From: a bacterium BMS3Abin15
GTDB lineage: Bacteria; Patescibacteriota; Minisyncoccia; Moranbacterales; 2-12-FULL-40-10
Length of the DNA stretch: 64,000 nt
Reading direction: 5' to 3'
NCBI GenBank assembly: GCA_002923195.1
Contig: BDTH01000074.1
Location: 9,081-73,080, forward strand
The notes beneath the pieces are model-generated. The model saw only the letters and a program-made list of their open reading frames with translations. It was not told where the DNA came from and did not search any database. Below are positions 6,835 to 64,000 of this stretch, in pieces. Each line of letters starts with the position of its first letter. Positions within the stretch are counted from its first letter, which is position 1. The position numbers and the translations under genes are program-made.

Positions 6835-7257
6835 TTACGAATAATTACCCGAATTACTCGAATGAAATTTCGGATTGATTACCCGCTTGGGGCTTAAATA
6901 ATGTGATCTGAAATTTACTATTATCCCTAAAGGCAAATTTGCTACTTCTAAATATCTCATCATCTGATAAAAATCTTCTTTTGTGATTAATCTCTTAGCC
7001 TTAAAATCCACAATTATTTTTTGGTCTATAATAAAATCCGGGATATTCCCTCTTGAATTAACGTTGCTAAAGATTTTATTAATTTCTTTTTCTCTTTGAT
7101 ATTCAACATTGTTTTCTTTTAAATGCTTTTCAAAAGCATCACAATACTGTCTCTCAGACATAGACCTGCCTAATTCATTATGCACTTTGAAAAACAAACC
7201 AGTCAACTTATAGGATAATTTTGGATAATATATATTTTTGTTTTTTACCAATGTCAT
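6835..7257 (-). CDS. GxxExxY family protein (PD-(D/E)xK-like)
   Basis: YYPKLSYKLTGLFFKVHNELG...FEKHLKENNVEYQREKEI pattern is typical of the GxxExxY family. Confidence 0.7.
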   Translation of the reverse strand: MTLVKNKNIYYPKLSYKLTGLFFKVHNELGRSMSERQYCDAFEKHLKENNVEYQREKEINKIFSNVNSRGNIPDFIIDQKIIVDFKAKRLITKEDFYQMMRYLEVANLPLGIIVNFRSHYLSPKRVINPKFHSSNSGNYS

Positions 7258-22585: not shown

Positions 22586-23355
22586 TTGCTTTTATTGGTA
22601 TCTTTATTATAAAGTCCGCGCTTGTAAACTAATTCTTTTAATAATTTACTTTTCTCTTTTGACCCGTAGGTTTTTACAACTTCCCCGTCAAATATTTGAA
22701 TGAGATAGTTAGCAAAATGTAGATACGCGAAATCGTGAGTTACCATAATAATGGTTTTTCCGTGCTGCTTGTTTAAATCACCGAGAAGCTGCATCATTTG
22801 CTGGCCTGATTCATAATCAAGGTTCCCCGTAGGCTCATCAGCAATAATGACTTCCGGGTTGTGGATAAGGGACCTGGCCAGGGAGACGCGCTGTTGCTGC
22901 CCGAAAGACAACTCGGTAGGAATATAGTCCGCCCACTCAACCATCCCAACCTGTCTCAGCATTTCCAGTGCTTTTTCTTGAGCAATAGTATTTTCTATCC
23001 CGAGGAGCGTTAGGGGAAATGCCACATTTTCCTTGACATCCAAAGCCTTTATCCAGTTTGATTGCTGAAAAACCATTCCGATAAGCTGTTTCCGAAAAAT
23101 AGCCCTGTCGTCCTCGTTTGTTCCCTCATAAAGATTGTGTCCAAAAAGAACCACATTTCCTTCATTGGGATCCTCCAGTCCTAAAATGGTATGAAGTAAT
23201 GTGGACTTGCCACAGCCGGAAGGGCCGAAAATAATAGCAAAATCGCCGTCTTTAATGGTAACGGAGACATTCTTCAGAACCGGAACATCCTGTGAACCGA
23301 CAGAGAATGACTTGCAAACACTATTTACTTCGATAACCGGCTGGTGGTTTTCCAT
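22582..23355 (-). CDS. ABC transporter ATP-binding protein (MacB/LolD type)
   Basis: Walker A GPSGCGKST, signature LSFGQQQR, Walker B IIADEPT. Confidence 0.85.
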   Translation of the reverse strand: MENHQPVIEVNSVCKSFSVGSQDVPVLKNVSVTIKDGDFAIIFGPSGCGKSTLLHTILGLEDPNEGNVVLFGHNLYEGTNEDDRAIFRKQLIGMVFQQSNWIKALDVKENVAFPLTLLGIENTIAQEKALEMLRQVGMVEWADYIPTELSFGQQQRVSLARSLIHNPEVIIADEPTGNLDYESGQQMMQLLGDLNKQHGKTIIMVTHDFAYLHFANYLIQIFDGEVVKTYGSKEKSKLLKELVYKRGLYNKDTNKSK

Positions 23356-23372
23356 AAATATTTTATTGCTTG

Positions 23373-37470: not shown

Positions 37471-38949
37471 TTACGGATTGGAAATTAATCTTTTGGATAA
37501 AAGTATTGGAATATAACACGGAACAATTATATCTCTACCATCTTCCGCTTTCATTTCTTTGATCAAATCATTTTTTCTCATAATTTTTCCTGTAATTTCT
37601 TTCGCTTCATTTTCTACGATTAAATTCTGGAAATCTTTATCTTTTTTATTGATAGTAATCACATAGGGTATCCATTTTAAGTCCCCTGCTTTCTTTTTGA
37701 CATTATAATTAATTTTTCTATCATCTAAGTCAACCCTAAAATCTAATGAATTAAGTTCTTTTTCAAGTTTTTTAGCATTCTCCAAAGAATCATCATCACG
37801 AGTAATTATTCTGGCTTGTATCGGAGCAACCCAAAAAGGAAACGATCTAAAGCCGGTCCTTGTTTCTTTCTTAATTGCTCTGTCAATAAAAAAGTAGGCA
37901 GAACGTTCAATCGATGAGAATGGAAAAACGACATGCAATATGGAAACGGGTTTTTTAATACCACCCTTCGTTTTAAATTTCAAATCAAGTGAAAATTCCG
38001 AAGAACCATCATCCACAAGACATGTGGCGATTTCTACTGGCGATTTTAAGCTATCAAATACTTTATACTCAATATCAATTTTTACTCCATCTTTGCAACG
38101 GACATCTTCATAAACTGCCAACAAGATTGGCTTGTTTATAGATTTGACTATTGTTTTTAAAAAATCAAAATTTTCTTTTAAGAAATCCTGTGTCATACTG
38201 CATAATAATTCATATTCTGGATCAAATTTCTCTATTTCATTTAATATTTTTGTATGTGCAGCTAATGCTATTTTTATTGACGACATTATATCTGCATTGA
38301 TAACATCGAGTTCTGGTATGCTAAAGCTTCTAACTCTTTTACATAATTGTAGCTCTTTTTCTTCTTCAAACCTGTAGCTCTTGGATATTTCGAAAAAACC
38401 AATTGGAAGACCTTTGTCATGAAGATTAATCCCTTTTGCTATTGAAAGTTTTTGCATACAAGCGTTATATCTTAATATTCGATTCTTTTTATTGATAACG
38501 ACATCGTATTGATTTAATCCATATAGCCCGGGATTTTTAGAAATTATCGCGATTTGCTTTTTTACTTCTGGAACATTGACATCAAGTAACTCTCCTCCAC
38601 CAACTTTATATAGTGGAATATCTTGATCATCGCTAAATTCTTTAACAACTAGCCAACTATACTTTTCTATTGCCTCCATGACAGTTGTAGCGTGTTGTAT
38701 TTGTCTCATATGTCCAGGCTCCGATAATGGATCCCATTCAAAACCCATTTCATTAATCATTTTATTAAGTTTGGTTTCTCGATCCTTAAATTTATGATTT
38801 TTTAAAAAACACTCGCTATCCACAAGTGATTTTAAACAAACTTCGGTTTTATCAAATTTATAATCATCCACAGGTGTAACTGTGGAGGACGAATCCAGTA
38901 TATAATATTTTTTATCAGAATGACTTTTTTTAGACTTTCTTATAGACAT
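37471..38949 (-). CDS. Class II aaRS-like protein, ThrRS-family paralog with degenerate active site (second zinc His missing); retains anticodon-binding domain
   Basis: YNACMQ (Cys ligand), motif-2-like SKSYRFEEE...RVRSFSIPELDV (no His), anticodon-binding FPFWVAPIQARIIT...DFRVDLDDRKINYNVKKK...IPYVITIN. Confidence 0.65.
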   Translation of the reverse strand: MSIRKSKKSHSDKKYYILDSSSTVTPVDDYKFDKTEVCLKSLVDSECFLKNHKFKDRETKLNKMINEMGFEWDPLSEPGHMRQIQHATTVMEAIEKYSWLVVKEFSDDQDIPLYKVGGGELLDVNVPEVKKQIAIISKNPGLYGLNQYDVVINKKNRILRYNACMQKLSIAKGINLHDKGLPIGFFEISKSYRFEEEKELQLCKRVRSFSIPELDVINADIMSSIKIALAAHTKILNEIEKFDPEYELLCSMTQDFLKENFDFLKTIVKSINKPILLAVYEDVRCKDGVKIDIEYKVFDSLKSPVEIATCLVDDGSSEFSLDLKFKTKGGIKKPVSILHVVFPFSSIERSAYFFIDRAIKKETRTGFRSFPFWVAPIQARIITRDDDSLENAKKLEKELNSLDFRVDLDDRKINYNVKKKAGDLKWIPYVITINKKDKDFQNLIVENEAKEITGKIMRKNDLIKEMKAEDGRDIIVPCYIPILLSKRLISNP

Positions 38950-39046: not shown

Positions 39047-40450
39047 CTAACGAAAACGAGGCTGCTTTGAAAGAAGGCTGGGCCAACTTAGTGGCTCAAA
39101 AGGTTTGTCTCCCTGAAGTTGATCGAGGTTTTGGGAAAACTCGGATTCCTTCATTTCCTTTTGTCCAGAAATTCCTCGTTCTCTCACAGCGATGGCCTGA
39201 TTCTCGAGTTCCTTATCCCCAACCATACCAACAAATGGCACCCAATTGACTTCTGCCTCCCGTATTTTGTACCCAACAGTCTCCTTGCGATCATCGATTT
39301 CCACCCTTGCCCCTATCTTTGAGGCAATTTCCTGACAACGCAAAATATGTCTGTCGGCTACAGGTATCAAGCGAACCTGAGTAGGACATAGCCAGTATGG
39401 AAACTTGGCAACTTCTCCTTTTTGTATTCTCCTTGCCTGTAGCTCCAAAAGAGCATACAGATTGCGATCTATAGACCCGGAGATTGATGCATGGAGAAGT
39501 AGGGGGCGTTGCTGTTTGCCATCCTTGTCAACATAGTTAATATCGAACCTCTCTGCATTCTCAACATCGATTTGCACAGTGGAAAGAGCGGCCGCTTTCT
39601 TTTGCCCATCAATCACGTTAAATTCAAACTTAAGGACAAAATAAAAGAACCTTTCTTTCCATACCTCGAGCAATACTGGACGCCCGAAATCCTTAACGAT
39701 TTCCATAACAAAGTCGCGGTTTTTTTGAAAGAAATCATCAACAACTCTTATTGCCATAACATGGTTGAGTTCGAGATCGCTCATCCATCTCTTACAAAGA
39801 AGATATTGCTGATAAAATTCTTCCTTGGCTTGCTCCACATCAACACAAAGAGAATGCATATCGGGCATCGTAAATACCCTCAGACGCCTCAATCCAGCCA
39901 ATTCCCCCGCCTGCTCCCTGCGAAATGAATAATGGGTCAGTTCGTAAATCTTCACTGGTAAATGATGATAGCTAATCCCCATATCATGCATGATCAGATA
40001 CTGTCCAAAGCAAGCAGCAAAACGAAGAAAATACTTCTTATCTCCACTTAGCAAATAGTATTGCCTTGCCGGAAAGCGTTTCAGATAGCTTGCCAGTTGT
40101 GGATGTTTAAGATCATACATAACTGGACTTTCAACCTGTATGCCACCATAGTCCTTTACAATTTCAGAAGCATGTCTTTCCATAAGGCGCTTGATTAAGT
40201 GTCCCTTTGGCAACCAACGAAAATTGCCAGAATCAGCAGCTGGTTCATAATCAACCAACTCCATTTGTTGCATCATCTTCACATGAGCAGGCGCTTCCTT
40301 CACCTCCCTCGAGCCAGAGCTTTCGTACGAATAAAAAACCTTCAAATCTTCACTCCCTGCCCATTTGAATTTCTCTACCTTAATAATTGATCCATCGGGT
40401 GAAACAATCAACCACTCCGATTTTGGCTCTTCTTCTTGTTTTGCACCCAT
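39047..40450 (-). CDS. Threonyl-tRNA synthetase-like catalytic core + anticodon-binding domain, lacking TGS/editing N-domains (ORF extends to 40588; RBS AAGGAGG supports start 40450)
   Basis: All three ThrRS zinc ligands are aligned: AACFGQ, MPDMHSL, LLLHASISGS. Motif 2 is FRREQAGELAGLRRLRVF. Anticodon-binding region is KFPYWLCPTQVRLIPV...GARVEIDDRKETVGYKIREAEVNWVPF. Confidence 0.75.
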   Translation of the reverse strand: MGAKQEEEPKSEWLIVSPDGSIIKVEKFKWAGSEDLKVFYSYESSGSREVKEAPAHVKMMQQMELVDYEPAADSGNFRWLPKGHLIKRLMERHASEIVKDYGGIQVESPVMYDLKHPQLASYLKRFPARQYYLLSGDKKYFLRFAACFGQYLIMHDMGISYHHLPVKIYELTHYSFRREQAGELAGLRRLRVFTMPDMHSLCVDVEQAKEEFYQQYLLCKRWMSDLELNHVMAIRVVDDFFQKNRDFVMEIVKDFGRPVLLEVWKERFFYFVLKFEFNVIDGQKKAAALSTVQIDVENAERFDINYVDKDGKQQRPLLLHASISGSIDRNLYALLELQARRIQKGEVAKFPYWLCPTQVRLIPVADRHILRCQEIASKIGARVEIDDRKETVGYKIREAEVNWVPFVGMVGDKELENQAIAVRERGISGQKEMKESEFSQNLDQLQGDKPFEPLSWPSLLSKQPRFR

Positions 40451-40608
40451 CGCCCTTCCTCCTTTATTCGTTTTTAATGTGCTCTTCAAAGAATTATTCT
40501 TTGAAACATTATATTGTATATCAGAAACTTGTTTATTGTCAATTCTTTTATTTTTTTTCATATGCTTCCTTGAATAATTATTTAACACTTATTTTTATAC
40601 TTGTATAT

Positions 40609-47864: not shown

Positions 47865-47898
47865 TACAAATTACAAATCTTGTTACAAATTTACAAAT
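47865..47898. repeat. Four tandem TACAAAT heptamers immediately upstream of tig
   Basis: tacaaat-tacaaat-cttgt-tacaaat-t-tacaaat. Confidence 0.6.
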
Positions 47899-48296
47899 TA
47901 TTTTTCTATATTTAACAAACGCATAAATTTTATACCATCAGAAGTAAAATTTGCAAGTATCGCTAATTTTAATCCCGTAGCTTTCAAGTATCCATTCACT
48001 TGATTGATATTTCTTTTAATAAAATAATTCCCTTTTTTAATTTCAAGAATAATCTTATCTTCGATTAAAAAGTCTAGAAAATATCTCCCGATTTCTTCTT
48101 TTTTGAATTTTATTTTAAATGGAACCTGCTTTTTAAATTTAATCTCTTTCTCTGTAAATGCTTTTTCTATTGCTTTACAATAATGTTTTTCCTGATAACC
48201 ATAATCCAGTTCGTTAAAAACATCAAACAACGATCCAACAATTCTATAGCTCAGTTGTTTATAGACTACCTTGTTATCAGTTTGTTTTTTCTTCAC
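47898..48296 (-). CDS. GxxExxY family protein (second copy in window), GTG start
   Basis: YKQLSYRIVGSLFDVFNELG...CKAIEKAFTEKEIKFKKQVPF. Confidence 0.7.
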   Translation of the reverse strand: MKKKQTDNKVVYKQLSYRIVGSLFDVFNELDYGYQEKHYCKAIEKAFTEKEIKFKKQVPFKIKFKKEEIGRYFLDFLIEDKIILEIKKGNYFIKRNINQVNGYLKATGLKLAILANFTSDGIKFMRLLNIEK

Positions 48297-52287: not shown

Positions 52288-53364
52288 ATGCTTAAAGGAT
52301 TAGGTAATTTACTGAAAGGATTTTTTACCAAGCCTGAGAAAACTTCCGGGTCCGCAAAATCTGCTGAAAAGAAAGCGGAAGAAGAGAAGAAAAAATACGA
52401 TGTAGGTAAGATACCCAGATGGCTGAAAGACTTAGGATACATAGTTTTCCTAGGCGGATCACTACTGTTCGTTATTCTGGGATCAATAATTGGACATATC
52501 TTTGAATATGCCAGTGAAGGTGCCGTGTCAGGATTGATTCTGTGGAGCTCTATCTATATAGCTCTCGGAATTGATATAGTTCCCCAAAAAATGTCCCGCG
52601 TGTACGAACGATTTGGCAAACCGGTAAAAATTAACCGTGCGGGTCCTCACCTAACATGCCTCAAGGGAATTATTGACAAGTTAGCAGTAGAAGTGTCGCA
52701 CCAGTATCATGTAACTAATCTCTTTACTGGGAAGGAGGGAGATCCGTCTCCCAAGATAGATTTTGCAGAAGGTACTACCGCTAAAATATGCGCCGAAACT
52801 TGGTGGAGAGTAGAGGATACTATTGATTCGATTTTGAGATTCGCATACGAAGTTTCAGATCCGGAGGGATTTATCCGCCAACAGTTTGATACACTTATAA
52901 GACCACACTTACAAAAACATTCTGCCGATGAAGCACAGCTTCAGAAAAATGAAATTGCCAGCAAAATAATAGAAGAACTTTCACCAAGAATAGCTGAACT
53001 TACAGGTATTGAGCTCGAGCCGATAAAGGGACTATTGATAAGAGATATTGAACTTCCTGAAAAAGTAGTAAACCAGAGATTTAAACGACTTGAGGGAACA
53101 ACAGAGGCTGAGAAAGACATACATCGTGGCAAAGGATATATAAATGCGATCCTGGCTATCAAAGAAGCAGCTAAAAAAGATGGGACAGATATTGACCTTG
53201 GTCAAGCTCAGAGAATATTTGAGCGCCAACGTGGTTTAGAAACCATTGAAAAAACAGGTGCTAATGTAACTTTCATCTCACCGGGTATTGGCGGCGTGTT
53301 AAAGACACTTGATATTGCACCTGAGAGAAAATACGACAAAAAAAGAAAGGAGAAAACGGCATGA
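52288..53364 (+). CDS. SPFH/band-7 (stomatin/prohibitin-like) membrane protein; ORF-track ORF begins at TTG 52261, but RBS favours ATG 52288
   Basis: AGGAGG RBS 7 nt upstream; TM then SPFH-like core (VPQKMSRVYERFGK...). Confidence 0.75.
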   Translation: MLKGLGNLLKGFFTKPEKTSGSAKSAEKKAEEEKKKYDVGKIPRWLKDLGYIVFLGGSLLFVILGSIIGHIFEYASEGAVSGLILWSSIYIALGIDIVPQKMSRVYERFGKPVKINRAGPHLTCLKGIIDKLAVEVSHQYHVTNLFTGKEGDPSPKIDFAEGTTAKICAETWWRVEDTIDSILRFAYEVSDPEGFIRQQFDTLIRPHLQKHSADEAQLQKNEIASKIIEELSPRIAELTGIELEPIKGLLIRDIELPEKVVNQRFKRLEGTTEAEKDIHRGKGYINAILAIKEAAKKDGTDIDLGQAQRIFERQRGLETIEKTGANVTFISPGIGGVLKTLDIAPERKYDKKRKEKTA

Positions 53365-53996
53365 ACGGATTAATTATTGTTGCGGCGTCACTGGTTATAG
53401 GCACGACAATTATCATTGTATCCGTGCTACGCCAAACAAGAAGCAAGAAGGTACCGGTAACTGAACTTAAGGATAAGTCCGTAGAAACCTCAGCTAAGAC
53501 TGACTCTTCAGCTAAGAAAAAGTTTTCATGGGCTTTCTTGGGAAAGTCCTGGGGAACAATTAAGGGGCTGACTATAGCAACGGTGATTATTGTCGCGATA
53601 ACTTTCCTGATCATTCTGCCTGTACACTCCTCGCTGACCAAGACCAAGATAGTTTCTTATTATCCTGCCGCAGGCACCCAAACGGTCTGTATTGGAAAGG
53701 AAAGTCAAAAAGTACATGTCAAAGTGGGAATAACCTACTATGAAATTCCCAGACTTGGCAGAACGTTAAAAAACAGAATGTCGGTTTCCACACTGGGAGA
53801 GTGGCCAAATTCAGAGACGAAGAAACTTTTACCCGTTAAGCATCGCAAATACGGGGAAGTATTGGTAAGCAGTCAGCCCAACAACTCCATAGTGAAGCTG
53901 GATTCTGATGGCTGCATCGAAGTTAAACTTAATCTTCCCGAGATGGTAAAAACTATCAGAGGAAGTAAAACAAGACTGCAATTTACAAAATTGTAA
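53361..53996 (+). CDS. Hypothetical membrane protein translationally coupled (ATGA overlap) to the SPFH gene; possible NfeD-like partner
   Basis: 4-nt overlap; N-terminal TMs + beta-rich C-terminal domain. Confidence 0.5.
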   Translation: MNGLIIVAASLVIGTTIIIVSVLRQTRSKKVPVTELKDKSVETSAKTDSSAKKKFSWAFLGKSWGTIKGLTIATVIIVAITFLIILPVHSSLTKTKIVSYYPAAGTQTVCIGKESQKVHVKVGITYYEIPRLGRTLKNRMSVSTLGEWPNSETKKLLPVKHRKYGEVLVSSQPNNSIVKLDSDGCIEVKLNLPEMVKTIRGSKTRLQFTKL

Positions 53997-54006
53997 GACA
54001 CAAAAA

Positions 54007-54040
54007 GAGGCGTATTCAATTGAATACGCCTCTTAAATTT
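54007..54040. terminator. Perfect 14-bp hairpin terminator (agaggcgtattcaa/ttgaatacgcctct), bidirectional
   Basis: Palindrome flanked by A/T runs. Confidence 0.7.
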
Positions 54041-54060: not shown

Positions 54061-54924
54061 CTAACCAGAAACAAAGAACGTAGCAACCTGACTGACAATT
54101 ACCAACGCGGCCATAGCAATTATAATCCCAATAACAGACCATTTGAAAATATTTTTCCCTTTAGTTATTCTTTCTTCATCTCCGGCCGATGTAAGATACA
54201 TTATTCCGCCTACTACCAACATTATAAGGGCCAGTATCCCTACAATAGAAAGGAGGAACTGAAGGGTACTAAGCGCTATTACGGCTAAAGTAGGCGACGT
54301 GGTTAAGACATCAATGCACTGCTGTTGAGCAATAGGGTCCGTGATAGACTGGCAGGCTTCCATTTTACTTGCATCGTCCCATCCTATAATATCCGAGACT
54401 TCATGCAGGAATGATGGGGCAGCTATTCCAATTGCCAGACCGATTACTGAAGCAGTAATAGCTTTCTTAGCCATTTCCATTCGTTTTTCATTTCCAGCGG
54501 AAGTTATGTAAAAAATTGCTCCGACTATGATAAATATAACAGAAACAACCACGATTATGCCCTGCAGGGCATTTAGTAAGCTAGCTAGTACTCCTTCCAC
54601 AGTGCTGAATTTTAATGGATTAGGAAAATCAATCGGGGCGGTAGCTCCTGTGCCAGGATCAGTGACTAGAACGCAACATTTTACACCAAGATCACAAGTT
54701 ATTGTAGGACTTGACCCCCTATCACTAAACCTTGAGCAATCACCCCCAACACCGCATAGTCCGTTAGCAGCAATACATTCAGTAGTAGTGGCTTTGGTTG
54801 CGGGAGCACCTACGAAAAAAAGCAAAAAAACAGACAATAGAAAGGTGGCTGCTAAAAATTTTTTAGAAAACAAAAGAGATTTTTTCATAAAACTTCTATT
54901 AAAAATACGGAGTGCTTGCATCAA
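54061..54924 (-). CDS. TrbC/VirB2-like 'T4SS pilin' family protein with two tandem pilin modules
   Basis: Signal peptide; Cys-rich variable region; modules with IFYITSAGNEKRMEMAKKAI and IMYLTSAGDEERITKGKNIF loops between hydrophobic helices. Confidence 0.65.
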   Translation of the reverse strand: MMQALRIFNRSFMKKSLLFSKKFLAATFLLSVFLLFFVGAPATKATTTECIAANGLCGVGGDCSRFSDRGSSPTITCDLGVKCCVLVTDPGTGATAPIDFPNPLKFSTVEGVLASLLNALQGIIVVVSVIFIIVGAIFYITSAGNEKRMEMAKKAITASVIGLAIGIAAPSFLHEVSDIIGWDDASKMEACQSITDPIAQQQCIDVLTTSPTLAVIALSTLQFLLSIVGILALIMLVVGGIMYLTSAGDEERITKGKNIFKWSVIGIIIAMAALVIVSQVATFFVSG

Positions 54925-55348
54925 GCGCTTCGGTAATGGCCCATATTATCACCAAGCCGGAAATACCCACAATTACTCCGATTACTGACCATCTCATATT
55001 TCTTTTGGCTGTTTCAATCATTTTTTCATCCCCAGCTGAAGTCAGATACTGAATTCCGGAAATTACAAAGGCGATTATGGCAATAAACCCGAATATCCCC
55101 AAGACCCAGGATAGAAAGTTAGCCATAATATCGATAACAGGTGCTTCAGATAGTCCGGTTTCTGTAGGAAAACATACACCTGCCTCCTTTTCAAAGCTAT
55201 CTGGACATTCACTAGCGCCAGGATTAGTAATCTGTGCATTTGCTAAATTAGAGAAGAATAAAACGCCAGAAAAAATCAGTATGACAGCAATGATAAAAAA
55301 TTTTGATTTATTGCTTGTTTTAGTTTTTGTTTTCATGATAATTAACAA
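54899..55348 (-). CDS. TrbC/VirB2-like T4SS-pilin family protein
   Basis: IQYLTSAGDEKMIETAKRNMRWSVIG between two hydrophobic helices; signal peptide. Confidence 0.65.
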   Translation of the reverse strand: MLIIMKTKTKTSNKSKFFIIAVILIFSGVLFFSNLANAQITNPGASECPDSFEKEAGVCFPTETGLSEAPVIDIMANFLSWVLGIFGFIAIIAFVISGIQYLTSAGDEKMIETAKRNMRWSVIGVIVGISGLVIIWAITEALDASTPYF

Positions 55349-55356
55349 GTTAATAT

Positions 55357-55749
55357 TTAGCAGATTTTAACAAACGGCAGTATATAAAAGCACCCATCTA
55401 GTAGGGCGGTAACCTCCTGGAGTATAATCAGGCCGGCAAGAGCTGTGATTACTCCATATATTGACCATTTCATATTTCTTTTGGCTGTTTCAATTGCAGT
55501 TTCATTGCCAGCTGAAGTCAGATACTGGATACCAGAAATAGAAAAAGCAATTATGGCTATTATGCCTATTATGGAAAGTATCCACATCATAATCTTTTCA
55601 ACTATGTCATAAATTCTCCCTTCGGGAAGACCGTAATTCCCATAGTTGGCCGGATCCCATGCTTCTCCCTGAGCCTGCACAACACACATCCCAACAAAAA
55701 ACAGAAGGATGATAGTAAAAACCAATAATGTTAAGCGTGACTTGTTCAT
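55357..55749 (-). CDS. TrbC/VirB2-like T4SS-pilin family protein
   Basis: IQYLTSAGNETAIETAKRNMKWSIYG. Confidence 0.65.
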   Translation of the reverse strand: MNKSRLTLLVFTIILLFFVGMCVVQAQGEAWDPANYGNYGLPEGRIYDIVEKIMMWILSIIGIIAIIAFSISGIQYLTSAGNETAIETAKRNMKWSIYGVITALAGLIILQEVTALLDGCFYILPFVKIC

Positions 55750-55919
55750 TTTACTTTTAAGAAATTTATTGATGTTTATATTATATCACACCTAATCTTA
55801 TATAAAAACACTGTGTGGATAACTGCGCCCTTACACATAATAGAGAAGTAAAAAAGTAAAAACGACTCAAATAAAGAGCCGCTTTTACCCTGAAAATTTT
55901 ATTAAAGTCAGTATAAAAA

Positions 55920-56294
55920 CTAGAATGTGGTTTCGCCTCCTCCAAGCCATGCATTAACAGCTTGTAATATCACTAAGCCTACTAATGCCACTATTACACC
56001 GATAATTGACATTATCATTGCTTTCTTAGCCTGACTGACTCTATCTTCATTTCCCGCTGCAGTTAGATACAAGATTCCCGCGATTGCAAAACCGATAACT
56101 CCGATAACTCCGACTAAGGCCAACAGCCATTTCATCAAATTACTAATGATATTGAAGACGGTACCTCCAGGAAGATTGGTATTATCTGGAGCAGCATACT
56201 GTGCCAAAACTACTACTGGAGCCAGCAACAGTCCTGAAGAAACAGTATAGGCAATTTTTTTGATTTTGTTTTTCATCATCCCACCTCCTTTCAA
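55920..56294 (-). CDS. TrbC/VirB2-like T4SS-pilin family protein
   Basis: ILYLTAAGNEDRVSQAKKAMIMSIIG. Confidence 0.65.
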   Translation of the reverse strand: MKGGGMMKNKIKKIAYTVSSGLLLAPVVVLAQYAAPDNTNLPGGTVFNIISNLMKWLLALVGVIGVIGFAIAGILYLTAAGNEDRVSQAKKAMIMSIIGVIVALVGLVILQAVNAWLGGGETTF

Positions 56295-56377
56295 CAGGAA
56301 AGTTAATTAAAACTTATCCCTTACTTTTGTTTTATTAACGAGTACTACAATTTATGCAATTATTATAATCCCTCTCC

Positions 56378-56460
56378 TACAAATGTACAAATACGCTACA
56401 AATATACAAATGTGAAACACTGGCTATATTTGTTATTTGTGGATTTGTAAAAGATTTGTA
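56378..56460. repeat. Palindromic array of heptamers: 4x TACAAAT, 20-nt spacer, 4x ATTTGT(A/G/T), upstream of the pilin-like gene
   Basis: tacaaatgtacaaatacgctacaaatatacaaat ... atttgttatttgtggatttgtaaaagatttgta. Confidence 0.6.
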
Positions 56461-56534
56461 AATTCGCGGGAAGCCTATATTTTTAAGTATGAAAACACGC
56501 AATCATTATTTTCATTATAACACATACAAAAAGT

Positions 56535-56804
56535 CTAGGAAATAAAGTTAGCCACAGTTCTTACTATTATTAAAACTGCAAAAATGACAACGGTTCCAAT
56601 TATAAAATAAGTAAAAGATTTTTTGGCTTTTTCCATCATGGACTCATTGCCGCCAGCTGTCAGATACATAATTCCCGATAATAAGGACATTATTATAGCA
56701 ATAATTCCCACCACTGTTAAAAGAAAATTGAAAAATCTAAGAAGGACTTCGGCCAAACTTGGAGCGTCCGATATAACACCAGCCTGGGCAACTTCGTAAA
56801 ACAT
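56535..56804 (-). CDS. TrbC/VirB2-like T4SS-pilin family protein (shortest paralog, 89 aa)
   Basis: IMYLTAGGNESMMEKAKKSFTYFIIG. Confidence 0.6.
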   Translation of the reverse strand: MFYEVAQAGVISDAPSLAEVLLRFFNFLLTVVGIIAIIMSLLSGIMYLTAGGNESMMEKAKKSFTYFIIGTVVIFAVLIIVRTVANFIS

Positions 56805-56829: not shown

Positions 56830-58152
56830 TTATTTCCTCATCAACTGATTTATTCTTGTTTCGGCAATCTTTAGAGCGTCCCTGATAGTGATACTGCCTT
56901 TGTTGACTGAGTCAATTGCTTCCGCTAAAATCTTTTCATTCTCTTCCGGATCCACCTGGTACCAGCTCTTGGCAATTAGGTTGCCGTAAGCAAATGGACC
57001 TAAGATAGGATCGCTTTTTTGTTCCTCTATTATATCACGTCTGGCAGCCGGCTTTCCTGTTATGTCTAAATAATTCTTGGCCGGATCAAAATCTACAGCA
57101 AATTCTTTAGTGTTTCCGCTAAGTGCATTGCCAAGTATAACTTTTCCATTATTTTTAACAGTCAGGAATTTTAAAAACTGTTGGGCTTCATAAGTAGCTT
57201 CATTACTTTTACCTTTGGCTGATGCAAATCCCCAATAATTAGCGTAGTTTACCGGCTGTCCAGAAGACGGCTGAGGAACAGGAGCGACCGCAAAATTAAG
57301 CTTTGCATTTTTGCTTTTGACAGTGCTGTAGTGCCAAGAGTAGTTTATCATCATAGCGGCTGTACTTTCATAAAATGAATCAATAGAATCATGCTTACTT
57401 GAATTCCAAGTGTAAAGCGGAGAATTAGAGCGAGCAAATTTGGTGTAGTATTCCATTGCTACTCTTCCCTGGTCATTATTAAGGGTAACCCTCCCCTTGT
57501 CGTTAATCATCTGGTTCCCATTCTGAAACATACGCAATCCCAGAATATCAGTAGAGCGATTAATATTATAAGCTGTTCCCATAGCTGCTCCTGACAGAGT
57601 TGGATTATTATATTGATCTATTTTGGTAAGCTTTTTAACAGCTTCGTCAAACTTTTCCCAGGTATCAGGAGGAGAGGCAATACCTTCAGCATTAAATAAG
57701 TCTTTATTGTAATACAAGGCCAACGAATCAACACTTAGGGGCAACGCATAAATTTGCCCTTCGCTTATAAAATCATCAATTGCCACATCTACAAAATTCT
57801 GGCGAAATTCCTGTTCGCCTAGAATATTATTTGAAATAGGCTCTATTTTATTTTTAAAAGACGGCAGCCAGTCATTATGAATTAGAAAAATATCCGGACC
57901 ATTGCCTGCGGCCATAGCACCTATAAGATCCTGCTTATAGTTCTGCTCCGTAAGCTTCTTATAATCTATGTCTCCTATATGAGGATTTATTTCTCTGAAA
58001 TTTTTGATAATCTCACGAAAAGAATCGGAGTCATCAAAGACGCCCCATATTACCAGATCGACTCTGTAATTGGTATTCTTCCCACATCCCGAAATAAAAA
58101 ATATGGAGGAAGTTATTAATATTGCTATTATTATTTTTATTTTTCTGCTCAT
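56830..58152 (-). CDS. ABC transporter extracellular solute-binding lipoprotein (family 1, sugar/glycerol-3-P type)
   Basis: Lipobox FISGC; SBP_bac_1-like length and composition (DTWEKFDEAVKKL, multiple W/Y). Confidence 0.75.
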   Translation of the reverse strand: MSRKIKIIIAILITSSIFFISGCGKNTNYRVDLVIWGVFDDSDSFREIIKNFREINPHIGDIDYKKLTEQNYKQDLIGAMAAGNGPDIFLIHNDWLPSFKNKIEPISNNILGEQEFRQNFVDVAIDDFISEGQIYALPLSVDSLALYYNKDLFNAEGIASPPDTWEKFDEAVKKLTKIDQYNNPTLSGAAMGTAYNINRSTDILGLRMFQNGNQMINDKGRVTLNNDQGRVAMEYYTKFARSNSPLYTWNSSKHDSIDSFYESTAAMMINYSWHYSTVKSKNAKLNFAVAPVPQPSSGQPVNYANYWGFASAKGKSNEATYEAQQFLKFLTVKNNGKVILGNALSGNTKEFAVDFDPAKNYLDITGKPAARRDIIEEQKSDPILGPFAYGNLIAKSWYQVDPEENEKILAEAIDSVNKGSITIRDALKIAETRINQLMRK

Positions 58153-58181
58153 GGTAGTGTTTAGTAATTGACTTGCTGGCC

Positions 58182-58733
58182 TTAACCCTTAGTGGCGATA
58201 AGCCCGTAATGAAAATCGCCAGCATCCACTTTTTCTTCAATTCTGAATCTCTGGCCTTCAACAAACTTTTCTAGCTCTTCGGATGATATTCTTATTCCTT
58301 TGTCCGGCCCAACGGATAGATTTCTGTCCCCCCATTCTATAACTAAAATTTTTCCCCCTGGCTTTAAGATTCGATGAGCCTCTTTTAGGACAACCTCCTT
58401 ATTTTTATTCTGAAAAAGCATGTCTTTTAATATCACCCAATCGATACTCCCTTCTTCTAGTCCAGATCCTTTTTCTTTTTCTAAATTAACCCTTTTAGTA
58501 ACTATATTGGAAATTCCCCCGATCTTTGCTTGACTTTCCACTGATTCCAATGCCTGAGGCAAAACATCAAGGGAATATAACTTCCCTTCCTCAATAGCTC
58601 TGGCGATAGGAATTGAAAAATATCCCGATCCACATCCAAAATCAGCCACAATACTGTCTTTGGATATGCTTATTTTACTTATAATAGCATCGGGATTAAT
58701 AAATTTGTCCGTCAAAGCGATTTTGTCCTCCAT
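58182..58733 (-). CDS. Class I SAM-dependent methyltransferase
   Basis: Motif I VADFGCGSGYFS; motif post-I KLYSLDV. Confidence 0.8.
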   Translation of the reverse strand: MEDKIALTDKFINPDAIISKISISKDSIVADFGCGSGYFSIPIARAIEEGKLYSLDVLPQALESVESQAKIGGISNIVTKRVNLEKEKGSGLEEGSIDWVILKDMLFQNKNKEVVLKEAHRILKPGGKILVIEWGDRNLSVGPDKGIRISSEELEKFVEGQRFRIEEKVDAGDFHYGLIATKG

Positions 58734-61689: not shown

Positions 61690-64000
61690 ATGGTTAAAAT
61701 TTCTAAAAAACATGCTGGCAAAACAAAATATTCTAAGGAAAAGAAGCTCGAGACGAAAAGGGTAATAAAAAAGATGCATCGGGAATCAGAGGAAGAAATA
61801 GCCGCAGCTGTTGCTATAAGAAATAATCTTCCCTATCTAGACCTCGGGCTAATACCTGTAGGTGAAGATGATGTAAAAATCATTAGTGAAAGAGATTCTC
61901 ATGACTACAACATGGCTGTTTTTCACAAAACGGGCAAAAATGTTAAGGTTGCCATCATCAATCCTCAGGATGTCAAATTAAAAGAAAGGATTGAAAAACT
62001 TCGCGAAGAAAAGGGCTGGGATATAAGCTTGTATGTTGTTTCTCAATCATCCATCCAGAAAGTGTGGGACATTTACAAGGGTGCCCCTCTAATGGAAAAT
62101 TTGGACACTATTCGGTTGTCTCTTTCCGGAAAAGATTTAGAAGAATTTGAAAAAAAATTCGGGGACCTTTTGAGTCTTAAGGAAAGAATAAAAGAAATAC
62201 CCATTACTAAGGTACTAAACACTGTAATGGCAGGATCTGTAAAAATGGATGCCAGTGATGTTCACTTTGAACCACAAGAAAAAGATGTGCGTGTAAGATT
62301 TCGGATTGATGGCATACTTCAAGATGTAGGAAATATTCCGTCAGACACTTACCGCTCTATACTATCACGAATAAAAATGATGAGCGGAATGAAAATTAAT
62401 ATTCGTGATATTGCCCAGGATGGACACTTCTCCATTAACATCAATAGGGATCGGAAAGATTCAAAAGATAAATCTTCAGATGATGCCAGGTTTGATGTCA
62501 GAGTCAATGTTATCCCAGGCAATTTTGGAGAAAGCACTGTTATGCGCCTCCTCAACCAGTCAGACGTAATGCTAAATGTGGAAGACCTGGGATTACGCGG
62601 ACTAGCCTATGAAGAGATAAAAAAACAAACTGAAAGGCCCAATGGAATAATTCTTGCTACTGGTCCTACCGGATCAGGAAAAACTACTACTTTATACGCT
62701 TTAATTAACAAACTTAATGTTCCAGGAGTAAAAGTAATCACCATCGAAGATCCCATAGAATATCAAATAAAGGGAATCTCACAAACCCAGGTTAGCAAAA
62801 ATAAGGACTATACTTTTGCTAAAGGATTACGGGCTATTGTTCGCCAGGATCCAGACATAATCCTAGTGGGTGAGGTCAGAGATGATGAAACGGCTGATAT
62901 TGCCATCAATGCCGCCCTTACTGGACACCTGGTACTCTCTACTTTGCATACTAACAACGCATCGGCTTCTATCCCCCGCTTAATAGAAATGGGTGTTAAG
63001 CCGTCTCTGATTCCTCCTGCTGTCAACGCTTTTATCGCTCAAAGATTGGTAAGGCGTCTTTGCCCGCACTGTAAAAAAGAATACAAGCCCGCTAAAGAAA
63101 CAGTAATTTCAATTAAAAAAATACTGGCTATAATTTCTCCTAAATCAAAAATAGAGATTCCTAAAGAAATACCTAGTTTGTACCGCCCGATTGGTTGTTC
63201 TAGGTGCCACAATCTAGGATACAAAGGAAGGGTAGGAATATTTGAAGTTTTGACCATCAATGAAGAAATTGAAAAATTGGTAATGGAAATGGCCGGTGAA
63301 ACAGACATAACTAGGGCAGCTTTAGAAAACGGAATGGTTACTATGGCCCAGGATGGTATTCTCAAGGCGGCTGAGGGCATAACTTCAATGGAAGAGGTTT
63401 GGAGGGTAACCGGACAGACAGAGTTCCTAGAAGAGCTTTATGAAAAATTAATGGCCCAGGCTCTGGGACGCGCTACTCTAGTTGACAAGATTAACTTTGA
63501 AAAAGCCAAAAATAGCTTTAAGGACTTTAAAAAATTCCAAGAAGTCATATCGGCAGCCAAAACAAAAGATCTCAGTAAAATAATTTTTTCCGCGGCTACG
63601 CTAATGGATGTCGGAGATATTCATATTGAACCGGAAGCCAATGATGTAAAAGTGCGCTTTAGAATAGATGGAATACTCCATACTGTAGCGACGTTTCCAC
63701 TTAATGAATACCCTAACGTTTTAGGTGAAATAAAACTGCTAAGTGGAGTAAAGTCCGGAGCCAGAGAAGGGGTTATCGACAGCCGTTTTAGCATCAAATT
63801 TGATGACGATATACAGAATATAAAAGAAAAATCAGTAGATATCCGTGTATCTATTATCCTTGGCGGTCATGGAGAAACTGTCGTACTGAGATTATTAAGC
63901 AAAGCTACCGTAGAGCTTGATATGAGCAAACTGGGCTTCAGGAAACAAAATCTTGATAAAATACTTAAAGAAATAGAAAAGCCAAATGGTATTATTCTCA
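61690..64000 (+). CDS. GspE/PilB-family secretion ATPase with a tandemly duplicated N2+ATPase module in one ORF (partial; continues past window end)
   Basis: T2SE N-terminal domain; Walker A GPTGSGKTT; Asp box; His box LSTLHTN; CPHC...CSRC tetracysteine. From ~63500 a second ...VKVRFRIDGIL...VDIRVSIILGGHGETVVLRLLS...KPNGIIL module begins in the same frame with no intervening stop. Confidence 0.85.
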   Translation, partial: MVKISKKHAGKTKYSKEKKLETKRVIKKMHRESEEEIAAAVAIRNNLPYLDLGLIPVGEDDVKIISERDSHDYNMAVFHKTGKNVKVAIINPQDVKLKERIEKLREEKGWDISLYVVSQSSIQKVWDIYKGAPLMENLDTIRLSLSGKDLEEFEKKFGDLLSLKERIKEIPITKVLNTVMAGSVKMDASDVHFEPQEKDVRVRFRIDGILQDVGNIPSDTYRSILSRIKMMSGMKINIRDIAQDGHFSININRDRKDSKDKSSDDARFDVRVNVIPGNFGESTVMRLLNQSDVMLNVEDLGLRGLAYEEIKKQTERPNGIILATGPTGSGKTTTLYALINKLNVPGVKVITIEDPIEYQIKGISQTQVSKNKDYTFAKGLRAIVRQDPDIILVGEVRDDETADIAINAALTGHLVLSTLHTNNASASIPRLIEMGVKPSLIPPAVNAFIAQRLVRRLCPHCKKEYKPAKETVISIKKILAIISPKSKIEIPKEIPSLYRPIGCSRCHNLGYKGRVGIFEVLTINEEIEKLVMEMAGETDITRAALENGMVTMAQDGILKAAEGITSMEEVWRVTGQTEFLEELYEKLMAQALGRATLVDKINFEKAKNSFKDFKKFQEVISAAKTKDLSKIIFSAATLMDVGDIHIEPEANDVKVRFRIDGILHTVATFPLNEYPNVLGEIKLLSGVKSGAREGVIDSRFSIKFDDDIQNIKEKSVDIRVSIILGGHGETVVLRLLSKATVELDMSKLGFRKQNLDKILKEIEKPNGIIL

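What the first reader, a model, noticed from the sequence alone, without database searches (positions are those of the whole stretch)
54061..56804. Tandem array of five TrbC/VirB2-like small pilin paralogs, one internally duplicated
Five consecutive minus-strand genes each encode signal peptide + variable (often Cys-containing) ectodomain + two hydrophobic helices joined by a conserved (I/L)xY(L/I)T(S/A)(A/G)G(N/D)E...AK(K/R) loop. The last gene (54061..54924) contains two such modules in one polypeptide. This matches my recollection of the 'T4SS pilin'-type family prevalent in CPR bacteria. Such expansion with divergent ectodomains suggests antigenic or functional diversification of a surface filament, possibly linked to the duplicated GspE ATPase 5 kb downstream.
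Basis: partly seen in the sequence, partly recalled or inferred. Interest (0 to 1): 0.55.

Follow-up and report, generated by a model that had tools for sequence, protein, structure and literature searches.

The report
VirB2-like pilin gene array, Moranbacteria
Five neighbouring genes in this ultra-small (CPR/Patescibacteria) bacterium encode small VirB2-like pilin proteins of a type IV secretion system whose motor gene lies 16 kb away; it is a real, typical example of a pilin array described in 2023-2025, not a new kind of system.

Summary
Five minus-strand ORFs (54061-56804) carry exactly six copies of one two-helix module, and all five pass Pfam PF18895 (T4SS_pilin). The last gene holds two modules. 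The genome is 'bacterium BMS3Abin15', a Moranbacteria-type Patescibacterium.

Two contigs whose overlaps with the window are base-identical (13,593 and 4,671 nt) show prgI/virB3-like, traC-like and virB4 genes 16.4 kb upstream on the same strand, 15 genes away. A sixth pilin gene lies in between.

In 64 untruncated arrays from other species, the modal layout is the same: five genes, with the two-module gene last in 62 of 64. In 16 species a two-module pilin sits directly before prgI-traC-like-virB4. Each half of the fused pilin is 56-68% identical to its counterpart in other genomes but only 32% to its partner. The array is therefore ancient and ordered, not a recent expansion or recombination cassette.

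The nearby double GspE ATPase is real but unlinked (near the array in 2 of 80 loci).

Arrays of 2-11 VirB2-like pilins in Patescibacteria are already published (PMC10633639, PMC12102498). The conserved fused pilin and a mini-leader pilin are modest details I did not find there.

The parts
56535..56804 (-). Pilin gene 1 of the array (89 aa). It has one module and only an 8-aa mini-leader, MFYEVAQA, before GVISDAPS. It starts 26 nt after the stop of the SBP gene.
   Evidence: PF18895 48.7 bits; module HMM 5.8e-29. 41 orthologues of 80-110 aa in related arrays mostly carry a 7-12 aa leader ending AxA; 6 have a full signal peptide.
55920..56294 (-). Pilin gene 2 (124-aa ORF; likely start at ATG 56279, 119 aa). 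Sec signal peptide ending VLA|Q, no Cys. Candidate major subunit.
   Evidence: PF18895 43.4 bits. It is the only array gene with a strong Shine-Dalgarno, GGAGGTG. It has its own promoter-like site and terminator-like hairpin. AF2 gives a helical hairpin H41-73/H78-112 with pLDDT about 90 in the hairpin.
55357..55749 (-). Pilin gene 3 (130 aa). Signal peptide, one module, C-terminal tail with 2 Cys. A fairly recent duplicate of gene 4.
   Evidence: PF18895 38.2 bits and TrbC 18.2 bits, sub-threshold. The core is 55% identical to gene 4, and the DNA is 74% identical over 166 nt.
54899..55348 (-). Pilin gene 4 (149-aa ORF; annotated start 55336, 145 aa). Signal peptide, ectodomain with a Cys pair (C..GVCFP), one module.
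   Evidence: PF18895 39.3 bits. NCBIfam NF045849 43.9 bits, cutoff 40. Orthologues carrying the same CP..GVCFP motif are L001_5 and L004_4.
54061..54924 (-). Pilin gene 5, the two-module fused pilin (BMS3Abin15_00899; annotated start ATG 54888, 275 aa). Order of parts: signal peptide, 6-Cys ectodomain, module 1, linker with 2 Cys, module 2.
   Evidence: PF18895 85.2 bits in 2 stretches. 100% identical to P0001. AF2 gives two helical hairpins, H97-129/H134-167 and H201-233/H238-273.
54376..54603 (-). Module 1 of the fused pilin. Its second helix has the conserved GLAIGIAAPSFL(K/H)E..GW signature.
   Evidence: Module HMM 5.5e-29. 56-68% identical to module 1 of other genomes but only 32% to module 2.
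54070..54291 (-). Module 2 of the fused pilin.
   Evidence: Module HMM 8.8e-31. 61-65% identical to module 2 of other genomes.
54005..54034 (.). Bidirectional intrinsic-terminator-like hairpin (13-bp stem) that closes the array and the convergent 211-aa ORF.
55853..55891 (-). Terminator-like hairpin directly after pilin gene 2.
56362..56389 (-). Promoter-like site (TGTACA-16-TATAAT) upstream of pilin gene 2.
   Evidence: This is a consensus match only.
56375..56471 (.). Imperfect 97-nt palindrome built from ACAAAT/ATTTGT hexamers that overlaps that promoter-like site. Possible operator; function untested.
   Evidence: 37-nt arms, 73% complementary. RNA fold z = -1.9. No Rfam family.
56830..58733 (-). 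Conserved upstream neighbours: an SBP_bac_1 lipoprotein (56830-58152) and a SAM methyltransferase (58182-58733). This is context; a functional link is not shown.
   Evidence: Pfam. Co-directional upstream of the array in 52-53 of 80 related loci.

Best explanation
The five genes encode the VirB2-like pilin set of the chromosomal, monoderm-type (MPF-FATA-like) type IV secretion system of a Moranbacteria-lineage Patescibacterium.

Proposed mechanism:
1. Four proteins are exported by Sec and cut at AxA sites. The 89-aa protein, with its 8-residue leader, probably inserts YidC-style, as ATP-synthase subunit c does.
2. Each module sits in the membrane as a helical hairpin, with both ends outside and the basic SAGNE..AKK loop in the cytoplasm.
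3. The VirB4 ATPase, working with the PrgI/VirB3-like protein (and a VirB6-like protein, seen so far only in a relative's cluster), extracts the hairpins. It assembles them into a filament or conduit through the wall, and the variable, disulfide-bonded N-terminal ectodomains are displayed on its surface.
4. The paralogues are not interchangeable variants. They form a fixed, ordered set: the 119-aa protein is the likely major subunit, and the others are minor or specialised subunits.
5. The two-module protein is an ancient covalent 'heterodimer' of two different pilins that carries a variable ectodomain.

Shown here: family membership, module anatomy, conserved order and orthology, and proximity to virB4.
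Inferred: topology, insertion route, filament formation, and the roles of individual paralogues.
For: Family:
- PF18895 is above threshold for all five proteins.
- NF045849, a pilin-like conjugal transfer protein of Mycoplasma ICEs, is above its cutoff for two of them.
- hhalign against annotated VirB2/TrbC gives 81.5% probability, E 1.2e-5, with both helices in register.
- AF2 models show helical hairpins.

Machinery:
- In contigs whose overlaps with the window are base-identical (0 mismatches over 13,593 and 4,671 nt), the same strand carries, in window-equivalent coordinates: a sixth pilin gene (68423-69292; PF18895 26.7 bits), virB4 (73239-75050; P-loop_TraG 100 bits, AAA_10, DUF87), a traC-like gene, and prgI (38 bits).
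- The locus tags agree: pilin 00899, 930-aa protein 00915.
- The gene order matches a relative in which CHAP/LysM, a TrbL_3 (VirB6-like) protein, PrgI, TraC-like and VirB4 precede the same tail genes and, 8 kb further on, the same MTase-SBP-pilin array.
- In 16 of 80 species loci a two-module pilin is immediately followed by prgI-traC-like-virB4.

Fixed ordered set:
- 64 untruncated arrays have a modal size of 5. The two-module gene is last in 62 of 64, and a short mini-leader member is present in 36 of the 46 arrays with at least 4 genes.
- Orthologue identity exceeds paralogue identity for both halves of the fused pilin.

Topology:
- The leaders end in AxA, and the loops are K/R-rich (read from the sequences).
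- The Cys count of the N-terminal ectodomain is even in 84 of 86 two-module proteins.

Literature:
- A series of predicted pilins within the T4SS cluster is essential in Southlakia epibionticum (PMC10633639).
- 441 such arrays have been catalogued (PMC12102498).
Against: - No pilus made of these proteins has been seen in any Patescibacterium. 'Pilus' is an inference in the literature too (PMC12857230).
- Sequence links to bona fide VirB2/TrbC are weak. Pfam TrbC is below threshold, and a profile search of PDB sequences finds nothing.
- Foldseek returns only generic helical hairpins such as ATP-synthase subunit c, with no conjugative pilin in the top 50.
- hhalign on hydrophobic hairpins can overstate homology.
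- Ten kb of unrelated genes separate the array from the T4SS genes: TsaE, DHH, the fused GspE and two Wzy_C genes.
- VirB6 and a cell-wall hydrolase were seen only in a relative. For this genome the contig I could read ends just upstream of prgI.
- The proposal that the 119-aa protein is the major subunit rests only on consensus promoter, SD and terminator matches.
Confidence: 0.78

Rival explanations
1. The proteins belong to the T4SS but do not form an extended pilus. Instead they build a short membrane- or wall-spanning channel or pseudopilus, or act as membrane-resident stator-like components. The several paralogues and the fused protein give a defined hetero-oligomeric ring.
For: Monoderm T4SSs generally lack pili (PMC12857230). 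The fixed gene order and the conserved covalent fusion suit a defined stoichiometric complex at least as well as a homopolymeric filament. The best fold matches are ring-forming hairpins such as subunit c, although these matches are not significant.
Against: Large, variable ectodomains (up to about 700 aa ahead of the two-module unit) with an even Cys count point to surface display. The family is homologous, if weakly, to filament-forming VirB2.
Confidence: 0.14
2. The array is an antigenic- or phase-variation system. The paralogues are interchangeable variants shuffled by recombination or gene conversion, as proposed for the virB2 paralogues of Anaplasma and Bartonella.
For: There are several divergent paralogues in tandem. 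PMC12102498 suggests an analogy to the Bartonella and Anaplasma VirB2 paralogues. Ectodomain length varies strongly between species.
Against: The longest DNA similarity between paralogues is 166 nt at 74%. Every paralogue has an intact ORF with its own start. Paralogue types keep their order across 64 arrays from different species, and orthologues are more alike than paralogues. There are no silent or truncated cassettes in the gaps.
Confidence: 0.04
3. The proteins are subunits or substrates of the type IV pilus / type II secretion-like machinery driven by the neighbouring tandem GspE/PilB ATPase.
For: A 1021-aa protein with two T2SSE domains lies 4.9 kb from the array.
Against: GspE is within 10 kb of the array in only 2 of 80 related loci. 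The leaders are Sec/AxA type, not class III prepilin type. The proteins match T4SS_pilin, not the type IV pilin N-terminal methylation families. The GspE gene is on the opposite strand and is followed by two Wzy_C genes, not by PilC or PilM.
Confidence: 0.02
4. These are generic small two-helix membrane peptides, such as holin-, bacteriocin- or immunity-like proteins. They were named 'pilin' only through compositional similarity and are unrelated to secretion.
For: Hydrophobic hairpins give many weak, spurious Pfam matches (one search lists Saf_2TM, DUF6112 and Cyt_bd_oxida_II). The fold searches do not discriminate.
Against: The motif Y-x-T-x-x-G-x-E..K..G is conserved well beyond composition. 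Two-module members directly precede prgI-traC-like-virB4 in 16 species, and the array lies 15 genes from virB4 here. The pilin series is essential together with the T4SS in S. epibionticum.
Confidence: 0.02

Closest known systems
VirB2-like pilin arrays of Patescibacteria T4SS: the essential series of predicted pilins in Southlakia epibionticum ML1, the 'Sec-secreted array' of Nanosynbacter lyticus TM7x, and the 441 arrays of 2-11 genes catalogued by Quinonero-Coronel et al. 2025 (PMC10633639, PMC12102498, PMC12857230)
   Same: Same Pfam family (PF18895). Tandem, sequence-divergent paralogues: 26-55% identity here against a reported mean of 25% and maximum of 54%. Chromosomal location within 20 genes of virB4, in a monoderm-type T4SS with PrgI/VirB3.
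   Different: This array lies in the Moranbacteria lineage (Paceibacteria), whereas the paper says arrays are most abundant in Microgenomatia and Saccharimonadia. It is separated from the T4SS genes by about 10 kb of unrelated genes. It ends in a two-module fused pilin and begins with a mini-leader pilin; a text search of that paper found no mention of fused or duplicated pilins.
VirB2/TrbC conjugative pilins of diderm MPF-T systems (Pfam PF04956), e.g. the Agrobacterium T-pilin
   Same: Leader ending AxA|Q, a short ectodomain helix, two hydrophobic helices joined by a short basic loop, similar size. hhalign gives 81.5% probability.
   Different: Only 16% identity, and Pfam TrbC is below threshold. 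The loop is about 7 residues longer, with its own SAGNE..AKK motif. The host is a monoderm with no VirB5, VirB7, VirB9 or VirB10. Cyclisation is unknown. Fused two-module forms are, to my knowledge, not known in VirB2.
Mbov_0395 / MMCAP2_0565 pilin-like conjugal transfer proteins of Mycoplasma integrative conjugative elements (NCBIfam NF045849)
   Same: Two of the five proteins exceed the family's curated cutoff, at 42.9 and 43.9 against 40 bits. Both belong to wall-less or monoderm MPF-FATA-type systems.
   Different: Three of the five fall below the cutoff. The Mycoplasma proteins belong to mobile conjugative elements with DNA-transfer functions, whereas this is a chromosomal, vertically inherited locus.
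Tandem virB2 paralogues of Bartonella and Anaplasma phagocytophilum T4SS (as cited in PMC12102498)
   Same: Several divergent pilin paralogues next to each other in a host-associated bacterium.
   Different: Those are classical PF04956 pilins in diderm pathogens and are thought to serve antigenic variation. Here the paralogue types and their order are conserved across species, and no recombination tracts were seen.
Type IV pilins (PilA/PilE type) assembled by GspE/PilB ATPases
   Same: Small surface-filament subunits. A GspE-type ATPase lies nearby.
   Different: Different leader type, fold and family, and no conserved linkage. Not a member.

Membership tests
Pfam PF18895 T4SS_pilin (Patescibacteria-type VirB2-like pilin) | Score at or above the curated gathering threshold (26.6 bits) | tested here: met
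   85.2 (two stretches), 39.3, 38.2, 43.4 and 48.7 bits.
Pfam PF18895 T4SS_pilin (Patescibacteria-type VirB2-like pilin) | Helix-loop-helix hairpin of two hydrophobic helices | tested here: met
   Hydropathy segments. AF2 hairpins with pLDDT 80-94.
Patescibacteria T4SS pilin array (sensu PMC12102498) | At least 2 pilin genes in tandem or separated by one non-pilin gene | tested here: met
   Five consecutive genes carrying six modules.
Patescibacteria T4SS pilin array (sensu PMC12102498) | Genome encodes VirB4, and the pilins lie within 20 CDS of virB4 | tested here: met
   virB4 is at window-equivalent 73239-75050, 15 genes from the first pilin gene, on contigs whose overlaps with the window are base-identical.
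Patescibacteria T4SS pilin array (sensu PMC12102498) | Other monoderm-type T4SS parts (VirB3/PrgI, VirB6, hydrolase) in the cluster | tested here: inconclusive
   PrgI (38.1 bits) and a TraC-like gene are present. VirB6-like (TrbL_3) and CHAP/LysM proteins were seen only in the syntenic relative L088, because the readable contig of this genome ends just upstream of prgI.
TrbC/VirB2 (Pfam PF04956) | Score at or above the gathering threshold (27.9 bits) | tested here: not met
   Best scores are 19.0 and 18.2 bits, E 0.0016-0.0029. Profile-profile comparison supports distant homology (81.5% probability), so this is a relative of the family, not a member.
TrbC/VirB2 (Pfam PF04956) | Fold match to solved conjugative pilins (T-pilus, F-pilus) | tested here: inconclusive
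TrbC/VirB2 (Pfam PF04956) | Assembly into an extracellular pilus; head-to-tail cyclisation in some members | not testable with these tools
   Needs microscopy and mass spectrometry.
NCBIfam NF045849 (Mbov_0395 pilin-like conjugal transfer protein) | Score at or above the curated cutoff (40 bits) | tested here: inconclusive
   Met by the 287-aa (42.9) and 149-aa (43.9) proteins. Not met by the other three, at 32.0, 30.1 and 15.2 bits.
Type IV pilin / GspE-dependent filament | Class III leader (G|F-T/S-L-I-E) and conserved linkage to a GspE/PilB ATPase | tested here: not met
   The leaders end in AxA. GspE is near the array in 2 of 80 loci.

The most novel reading that the evidence does not exclude
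The two-module protein is a conserved, covalently fused heterodimer of two different VirB2-like pilins.

Observations:
- It forms 244 clusters at 50% identity.
- The two-module unit is C-terminal in nearly all of the 150 listed hits, behind ectodomains of up to about 700 aa.
- It is the last gene of the array in 62 of 64 arrays, or sits directly before prgI-virB4.

Reading: this protein may be the symmetry-breaking initiator, or the tip or adhesin-presenting subunit, of a heteropolymeric T4SS filament in monoderm Patescibacteria. That would make it a functional stand-in for the missing VirB5. The fixed gene order would then encode an assembly order.
Probability: 0.2. Interest if true: 0.6.

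Novelty: new member of a known kind. Interest (0 to 1): 0.3.

Why it matters
Patescibacteria make up a large share of uncultured bacterial diversity and live attached to host cells. Their T4SS, including its series of pilins, is essential for that lifestyle in the one species tested (PMC10633639), yet nobody knows what the pilins build.

This locus adds nothing categorically new. It does give a clean, well-delimited example from the Moranbacteria lineage and three testable details:
- The paralogues form a fixed, ordered set rather than interchangeable variants.
- One of them is an ancient fusion of two different pilins that carries the variable ectodomain.
- One has lost all but a mini-leader.

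These details narrow the hypotheses, favouring a heteropolymeric filament with defined parts over antigenic variation, for anyone solving the structure or doing genetics in a cultured relative.

Tried and rejected
- **GspE link:** rejected. It is near the array in 2 of 80 loci, has the wrong leader type, and its own neighbours are Wzy_C genes.
- **Recent expansion or gene conversion:** rejected. The longest similarity between paralogues is 166 nt at 74%.
- **Extra or decayed family members in the window:** none found.
- **T4SS genes inside the window:** none among ORFs of at least 110 aa. They lie just outside it.
- **Exact look-up of the TTG-start 287-aa ORF:** not on record. The annotated protein starts 12 codons later.
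- **Finding this genome's VirB4 with a relative's VirB4 as query:** failed, because the top 120 hits were all closer relatives of the query. I got there instead by walking through the 930-aa neighbour and its cluster member.
- **Profile search of PDB sequences:** nothing.
- **tblastn of a pilin against plasmids:** no match.
- **Fetching R388 and RP4 by accession:** not in the collection. VirB2 sequences were obtained through a tblastn seeded with a T-pilin sequence recalled from memory; only the retrieved annotated genes were used.
- **Rfam on the array region:** only one sub-threshold sRNA match, on the terminator.
- **Literature search for 'Moranbacteria' plus 'pilin':** no paper.
Full report

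Yes.

| ORF | Length | Note |
|---|---|---|
| 56535-56804 | 89 aa | |
| 55920-56294 | 124 aa | annotated 119 |
| 55357-55749 | 130 aa | |
| 54899-55348 | 149 aa | annotated 145 |
| 54061-54924 | 287 aa from a TTG | the public annotation BMS3Abin15_00899 starts at the ATG at 54888, 275 aa |

- A profile of the modules, searched against all six reading frames of the 64-kb window, hits exactly these six places (E 1e-29 to 1e-32). Nothing else scores better than E about 1. There are no further members and no decayed copies in the 170- and 240-nt gaps.
- Two corrections. The first gene of the array (56535-56804) has no real signal peptide, only MFYEVAQA ahead of the mature-looking GVISDAPS. Cysteines are present in three of the five proteins.

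**2. What family?**

- All five proteins pass the curated threshold of Pfam PF18895, 'Type IV secretion system pilin'. Scores are 38-85 bits against 26.6, and the last gene has two stretches.
- Two proteins also pass NCBIfam NF045849, a pilin-like conjugal-transfer protein of Mycoplasma ICEs.
- The classical TrbC/VirB2 family (PF04956) is hit only below threshold.
- I tested that link myself by aligning six annotated VirB2/TrbC genes from MPF-T plasmids and 16 single-module CPR pilins. hhalign gives 81.5% probability, E 1.2e-5, 62 columns with both helices in register and 16% identity. The CPR loop is about seven residues longer.
- AlphaFold models show the expected hairpins: two of them in the fused protein and one in the 119-aa protein with pLDDT about 90.
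- Foldseek against the PDB returns only generic hairpins, and a profile search of PDB sequences finds nothing.
- Conclusion: a secure member of PF18895 and a probable distant relative, not a member, of TrbC/VirB2.

**3. Whose genome, and where is the machinery?**

- The fused pilin is 100% identical to a protein of 'bacterium BMS3Abin15'. An identical assembly is labelled Candidatus Moranbacteria.
- Inside the window the neighbours are housekeeping genes: NusA, H+-PPase, trigger factor, ClpP, RNase Y, an SPFH protein, an orphan solute-binding lipoprotein, a methyltransferase and TsaE. No VirB4, VirB6 or VirD4 is present.
- Two public contigs overlap the window with zero mismatches, over 13,593 and 4,671 nt, and extend it.
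- In window-equivalent coordinates, the extension carries:

| Feature | Coordinates | Strand |
|---|---|---|
| Fused GspE | 61690-64755 | + |
| Two Wzy_C genes | to 67258 | + |
| 381-aa gene | 67248-68393 | - (array strand) |
| Sixth pilin gene, 289 aa, module plus a C-terminal domain | 68423-69292 | - |
| 930-aa protein (BMS3Abin15_00915) | 69330-72122 | - |
| Two small genes | 72141-73193 | - |
| VirB4 | 73239-75050 | - |
| TraC-like | 75067-75753 | - |
| PrgI/VirB3-like | 75897-76337 | - |

- My own Pfam scan confirms VirB4 (P-loop_TraG 100 bits, AAA_10, DUF87), PrgI (38 bits) and the sixth pilin (26.7 bits).
- The locus-tag arithmetic fits: 00899 plus 16 genes gives 00915. virB4 is therefore 16.4 kb, or 15 genes, from the array. 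That counts as 'near virB4' by the plus-or-minus 20 CDS criterion of the published survey.
- A relative shows the full order: CHAP/LysM, TrbL_3 (VirB6-like), PrgI, TraC-like, VirB4, tail genes including two pilins, a few housekeeping genes, then methyltransferase, SBP and the pilin array.

**4. Is it an expansion?**

- A scan of one genome per species found 103 loci encoding a two-module pilin. The 80 kept are almost all labelled Moranbacteria/Moraniibacteriota.
- Among 64 arrays not cut by a contig end, sizes are 1 (4 arrays), 2 (14), 4 (1), 5 (23), 6 (14), 7 (6) and 8 (2). The two-module gene is last in 62 of 64. An 80-110-aa member is among the first three genes in 36 of the 46 arrays with four or more genes.
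- The methyltransferase and SBP genes lie co-directionally upstream in 52-53 of 80 loci, and NusA lies downstream in 33.
- The window's five-gene array is therefore the modal form of an old, vertically inherited locus.
- Module identities say the same. The two halves of the fused protein are 32% identical to each other, but 56-68% and 61-65% identical to the corresponding halves in three other genomes. Only genes 3 and 4 look like a younger duplication, at 55% protein identity and 74% DNA identity over 166 nt.
- No long identical tracts exist, so there is no sign of gene conversion.
- What does vary is the ectodomain. In an exhaustive search the two-module unit is C-terminal in nearly all listed hits, in proteins of 197-911 aa. 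The family has 244 clusters at E <= 1e-30, and 15,984 clusters of the wider family at E <= 1e-3.
- The N-terminal Cys count is even in 84 of 86 two-module proteins. That fits an extracytoplasmic, disulfide-bonded domain and hence the N-out topology.
- In 16 species a two-module pilin is followed immediately by prgI-traC-like-virB4. This ties the fused form directly to the secretion machine.

**5. The GspE idea.**

The ATPase is real: a 1021-aa protein with two T2SSE domains plus an MshEN domain. However, it is on the other strand, is followed by two Wzy_C genes, and is within 10 kb of the array in only 2 of 80 loci. The pilins have AxA Sec-type leaders, not prepilin leaders. I reject the link.

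**6. How it most likely works.**

- Shown: family, anatomy, order, orthology and proximity to virB4.
- Inferred from VirB2 biology and from the sequences:
  - Export is by Sec with cleavage at AxA. The mini-leader protein inserts YidC-style, as subunit c does.
  - The result is a membrane pool of N-out/C-out hairpins with the basic loop inside.
  - VirB4 extracts them and polymerises them into a filament or conduit through the wall that displays the ectodomains.
- The 119-aa gene is the only one with a strong Shine-Dalgarno. It also has its own promoter-like site and terminator-like hairpin, so I propose it as the major subunit. This is weakly supported.
- The fused protein, with its 6-Cys ectodomain, is a candidate initiator or tip subunit. 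This is speculative.
- The main rival is that the same proteins form a short hetero-oligomeric channel rather than a pilus.

**7. What is already known?**

- Wang et al. 2023 reported a series of predicted pilins inside the essential T4SS cluster of Southlakia epibionticum.
- Quinonero-Coronel et al. 2025 used PF18895 and PF04956 on 3,035 genomes and reported 441 arrays of 2-11 pilin genes. Mean identity was 25% and the maximum 54%.
- A 2025 review, which counts six pilins in the S. epibionticum cluster, highlights them as the only VirB2-like proteins in monoderm T4SSs.
- The class is therefore known, and this locus is a further member.
- I found no mention in the survey paper of fused two-module pilins, and no paper combining Moranbacteria and pilin. 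The fused pilin, the conserved order and the mini-leader member are modest additions rather than discoveries.
- The NCBIfam match to Mycoplasma ICE proteins also bears on the survey's remark that VirB2-like pilins are absent from MPF-FATA systems.

**8. Verdict.**

- Observation confirmed.
- Family assignment supported.
- GspE link refuted.
- 'Diversifying expansion' is better described as an ancient, ordered paralogue set with variable ectodomains.
- Novelty: new member of a known kind. Interest: 0.3.

Noticed in passing
window 61690-64000 (+), continuing to window-equivalent 64755 (L006 11283-14348): A 1021-aa protein with an MshEN domain and two complete T2SSE (GspE/PilB) ATPase domains fused in tandem. 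It is followed by two Wzy_C (O-antigen-ligase/PilO-like) genes rather than by PilC or PilM.
   Followed up: partly
window-equivalent 67248-77166 (L006 16841-21140; L095 1-9919): Just beyond the window end lies the T4SS block of this genome. It holds a 381-aa gene, a 289-aa pilin with a C-terminal globular domain, a 930-aa protein with no Pfam match (a fusion of two genes that are separate in relative L088), two small genes, virB4, a traC-like gene and prgI.
   Followed up: yes
window 56375-56471: A 97-nt imperfect palindrome made of about eight ACAAAT/ATTTGT hexamers. It overlaps the promoter-like site upstream of the 119-aa pilin gene and may be an operator. There is no Rfam match, and the RNA fold z-score is only -1.9.
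   Followed up: partly
window 56781-56804, and 41 orthologues in L009-L085: The short pilin type has a 7-12-residue 'mini-leader' that still ends in AxA (AQA, AHA or AYA) before (G/Q)VI.DAP. Six orthologues keep a full signal peptide, which suggests the leader shrank while the cleavage site was retained.
   Followed up: partly
window 56830-58733: An orphan SBP_bac_1 lipoprotein with no adjacent permease or ATPase, plus a SAM methyltransferase, lie co-directionally upstream of the pilin array in 52-53 of 80 related species. The first pilin gene starts 26 nt after the SBP stop. A functional link is untested.
   Followed up: partly
window 55920-55940 and 54899-54920 (C-termini of the 119- and 145-aa pilins): These pilins and their orthologues end in a Gly/Ser/Thr-rich tail plus an aromatic residue (..GGGETTF, ..ASTPYF, ..GGSTTF, ..GATAY). 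Their predicted mature N-terminus is often Gln after AxA, as in the VirB2 sequences aligned here. This could bear on terminal processing.
   Followed up: no
window 54005-54034: A strong 13-bp-stem bidirectional terminator-like hairpin between the last pilin gene and a convergent 211-aa ORF with no Pfam match (53361-53996).
   Followed up: no
window 6835-7257 and 47898-48296: Two small PD-(D/E)XK nuclease (PDDEXK_3) paralogues lie 40 kb apart among housekeeping genes.
   Followed up: no
window 37471-38949 and 39047-40588: Two class-II aminoacyl-tRNA-synthetase-like genes (tRNA-synt_2b plus HGTP_anticodon) in tandem. The first matches the catalytic core only weakly.
   Followed up: no
window 20600-28124: A 1583-aa surface protein with DUF2341, several FN3 domains and purple-acid-phosphatase-N-like domains lies directly upstream of an ABC ATPase and a MacB/FtsX-type permease.
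   Followed up: no
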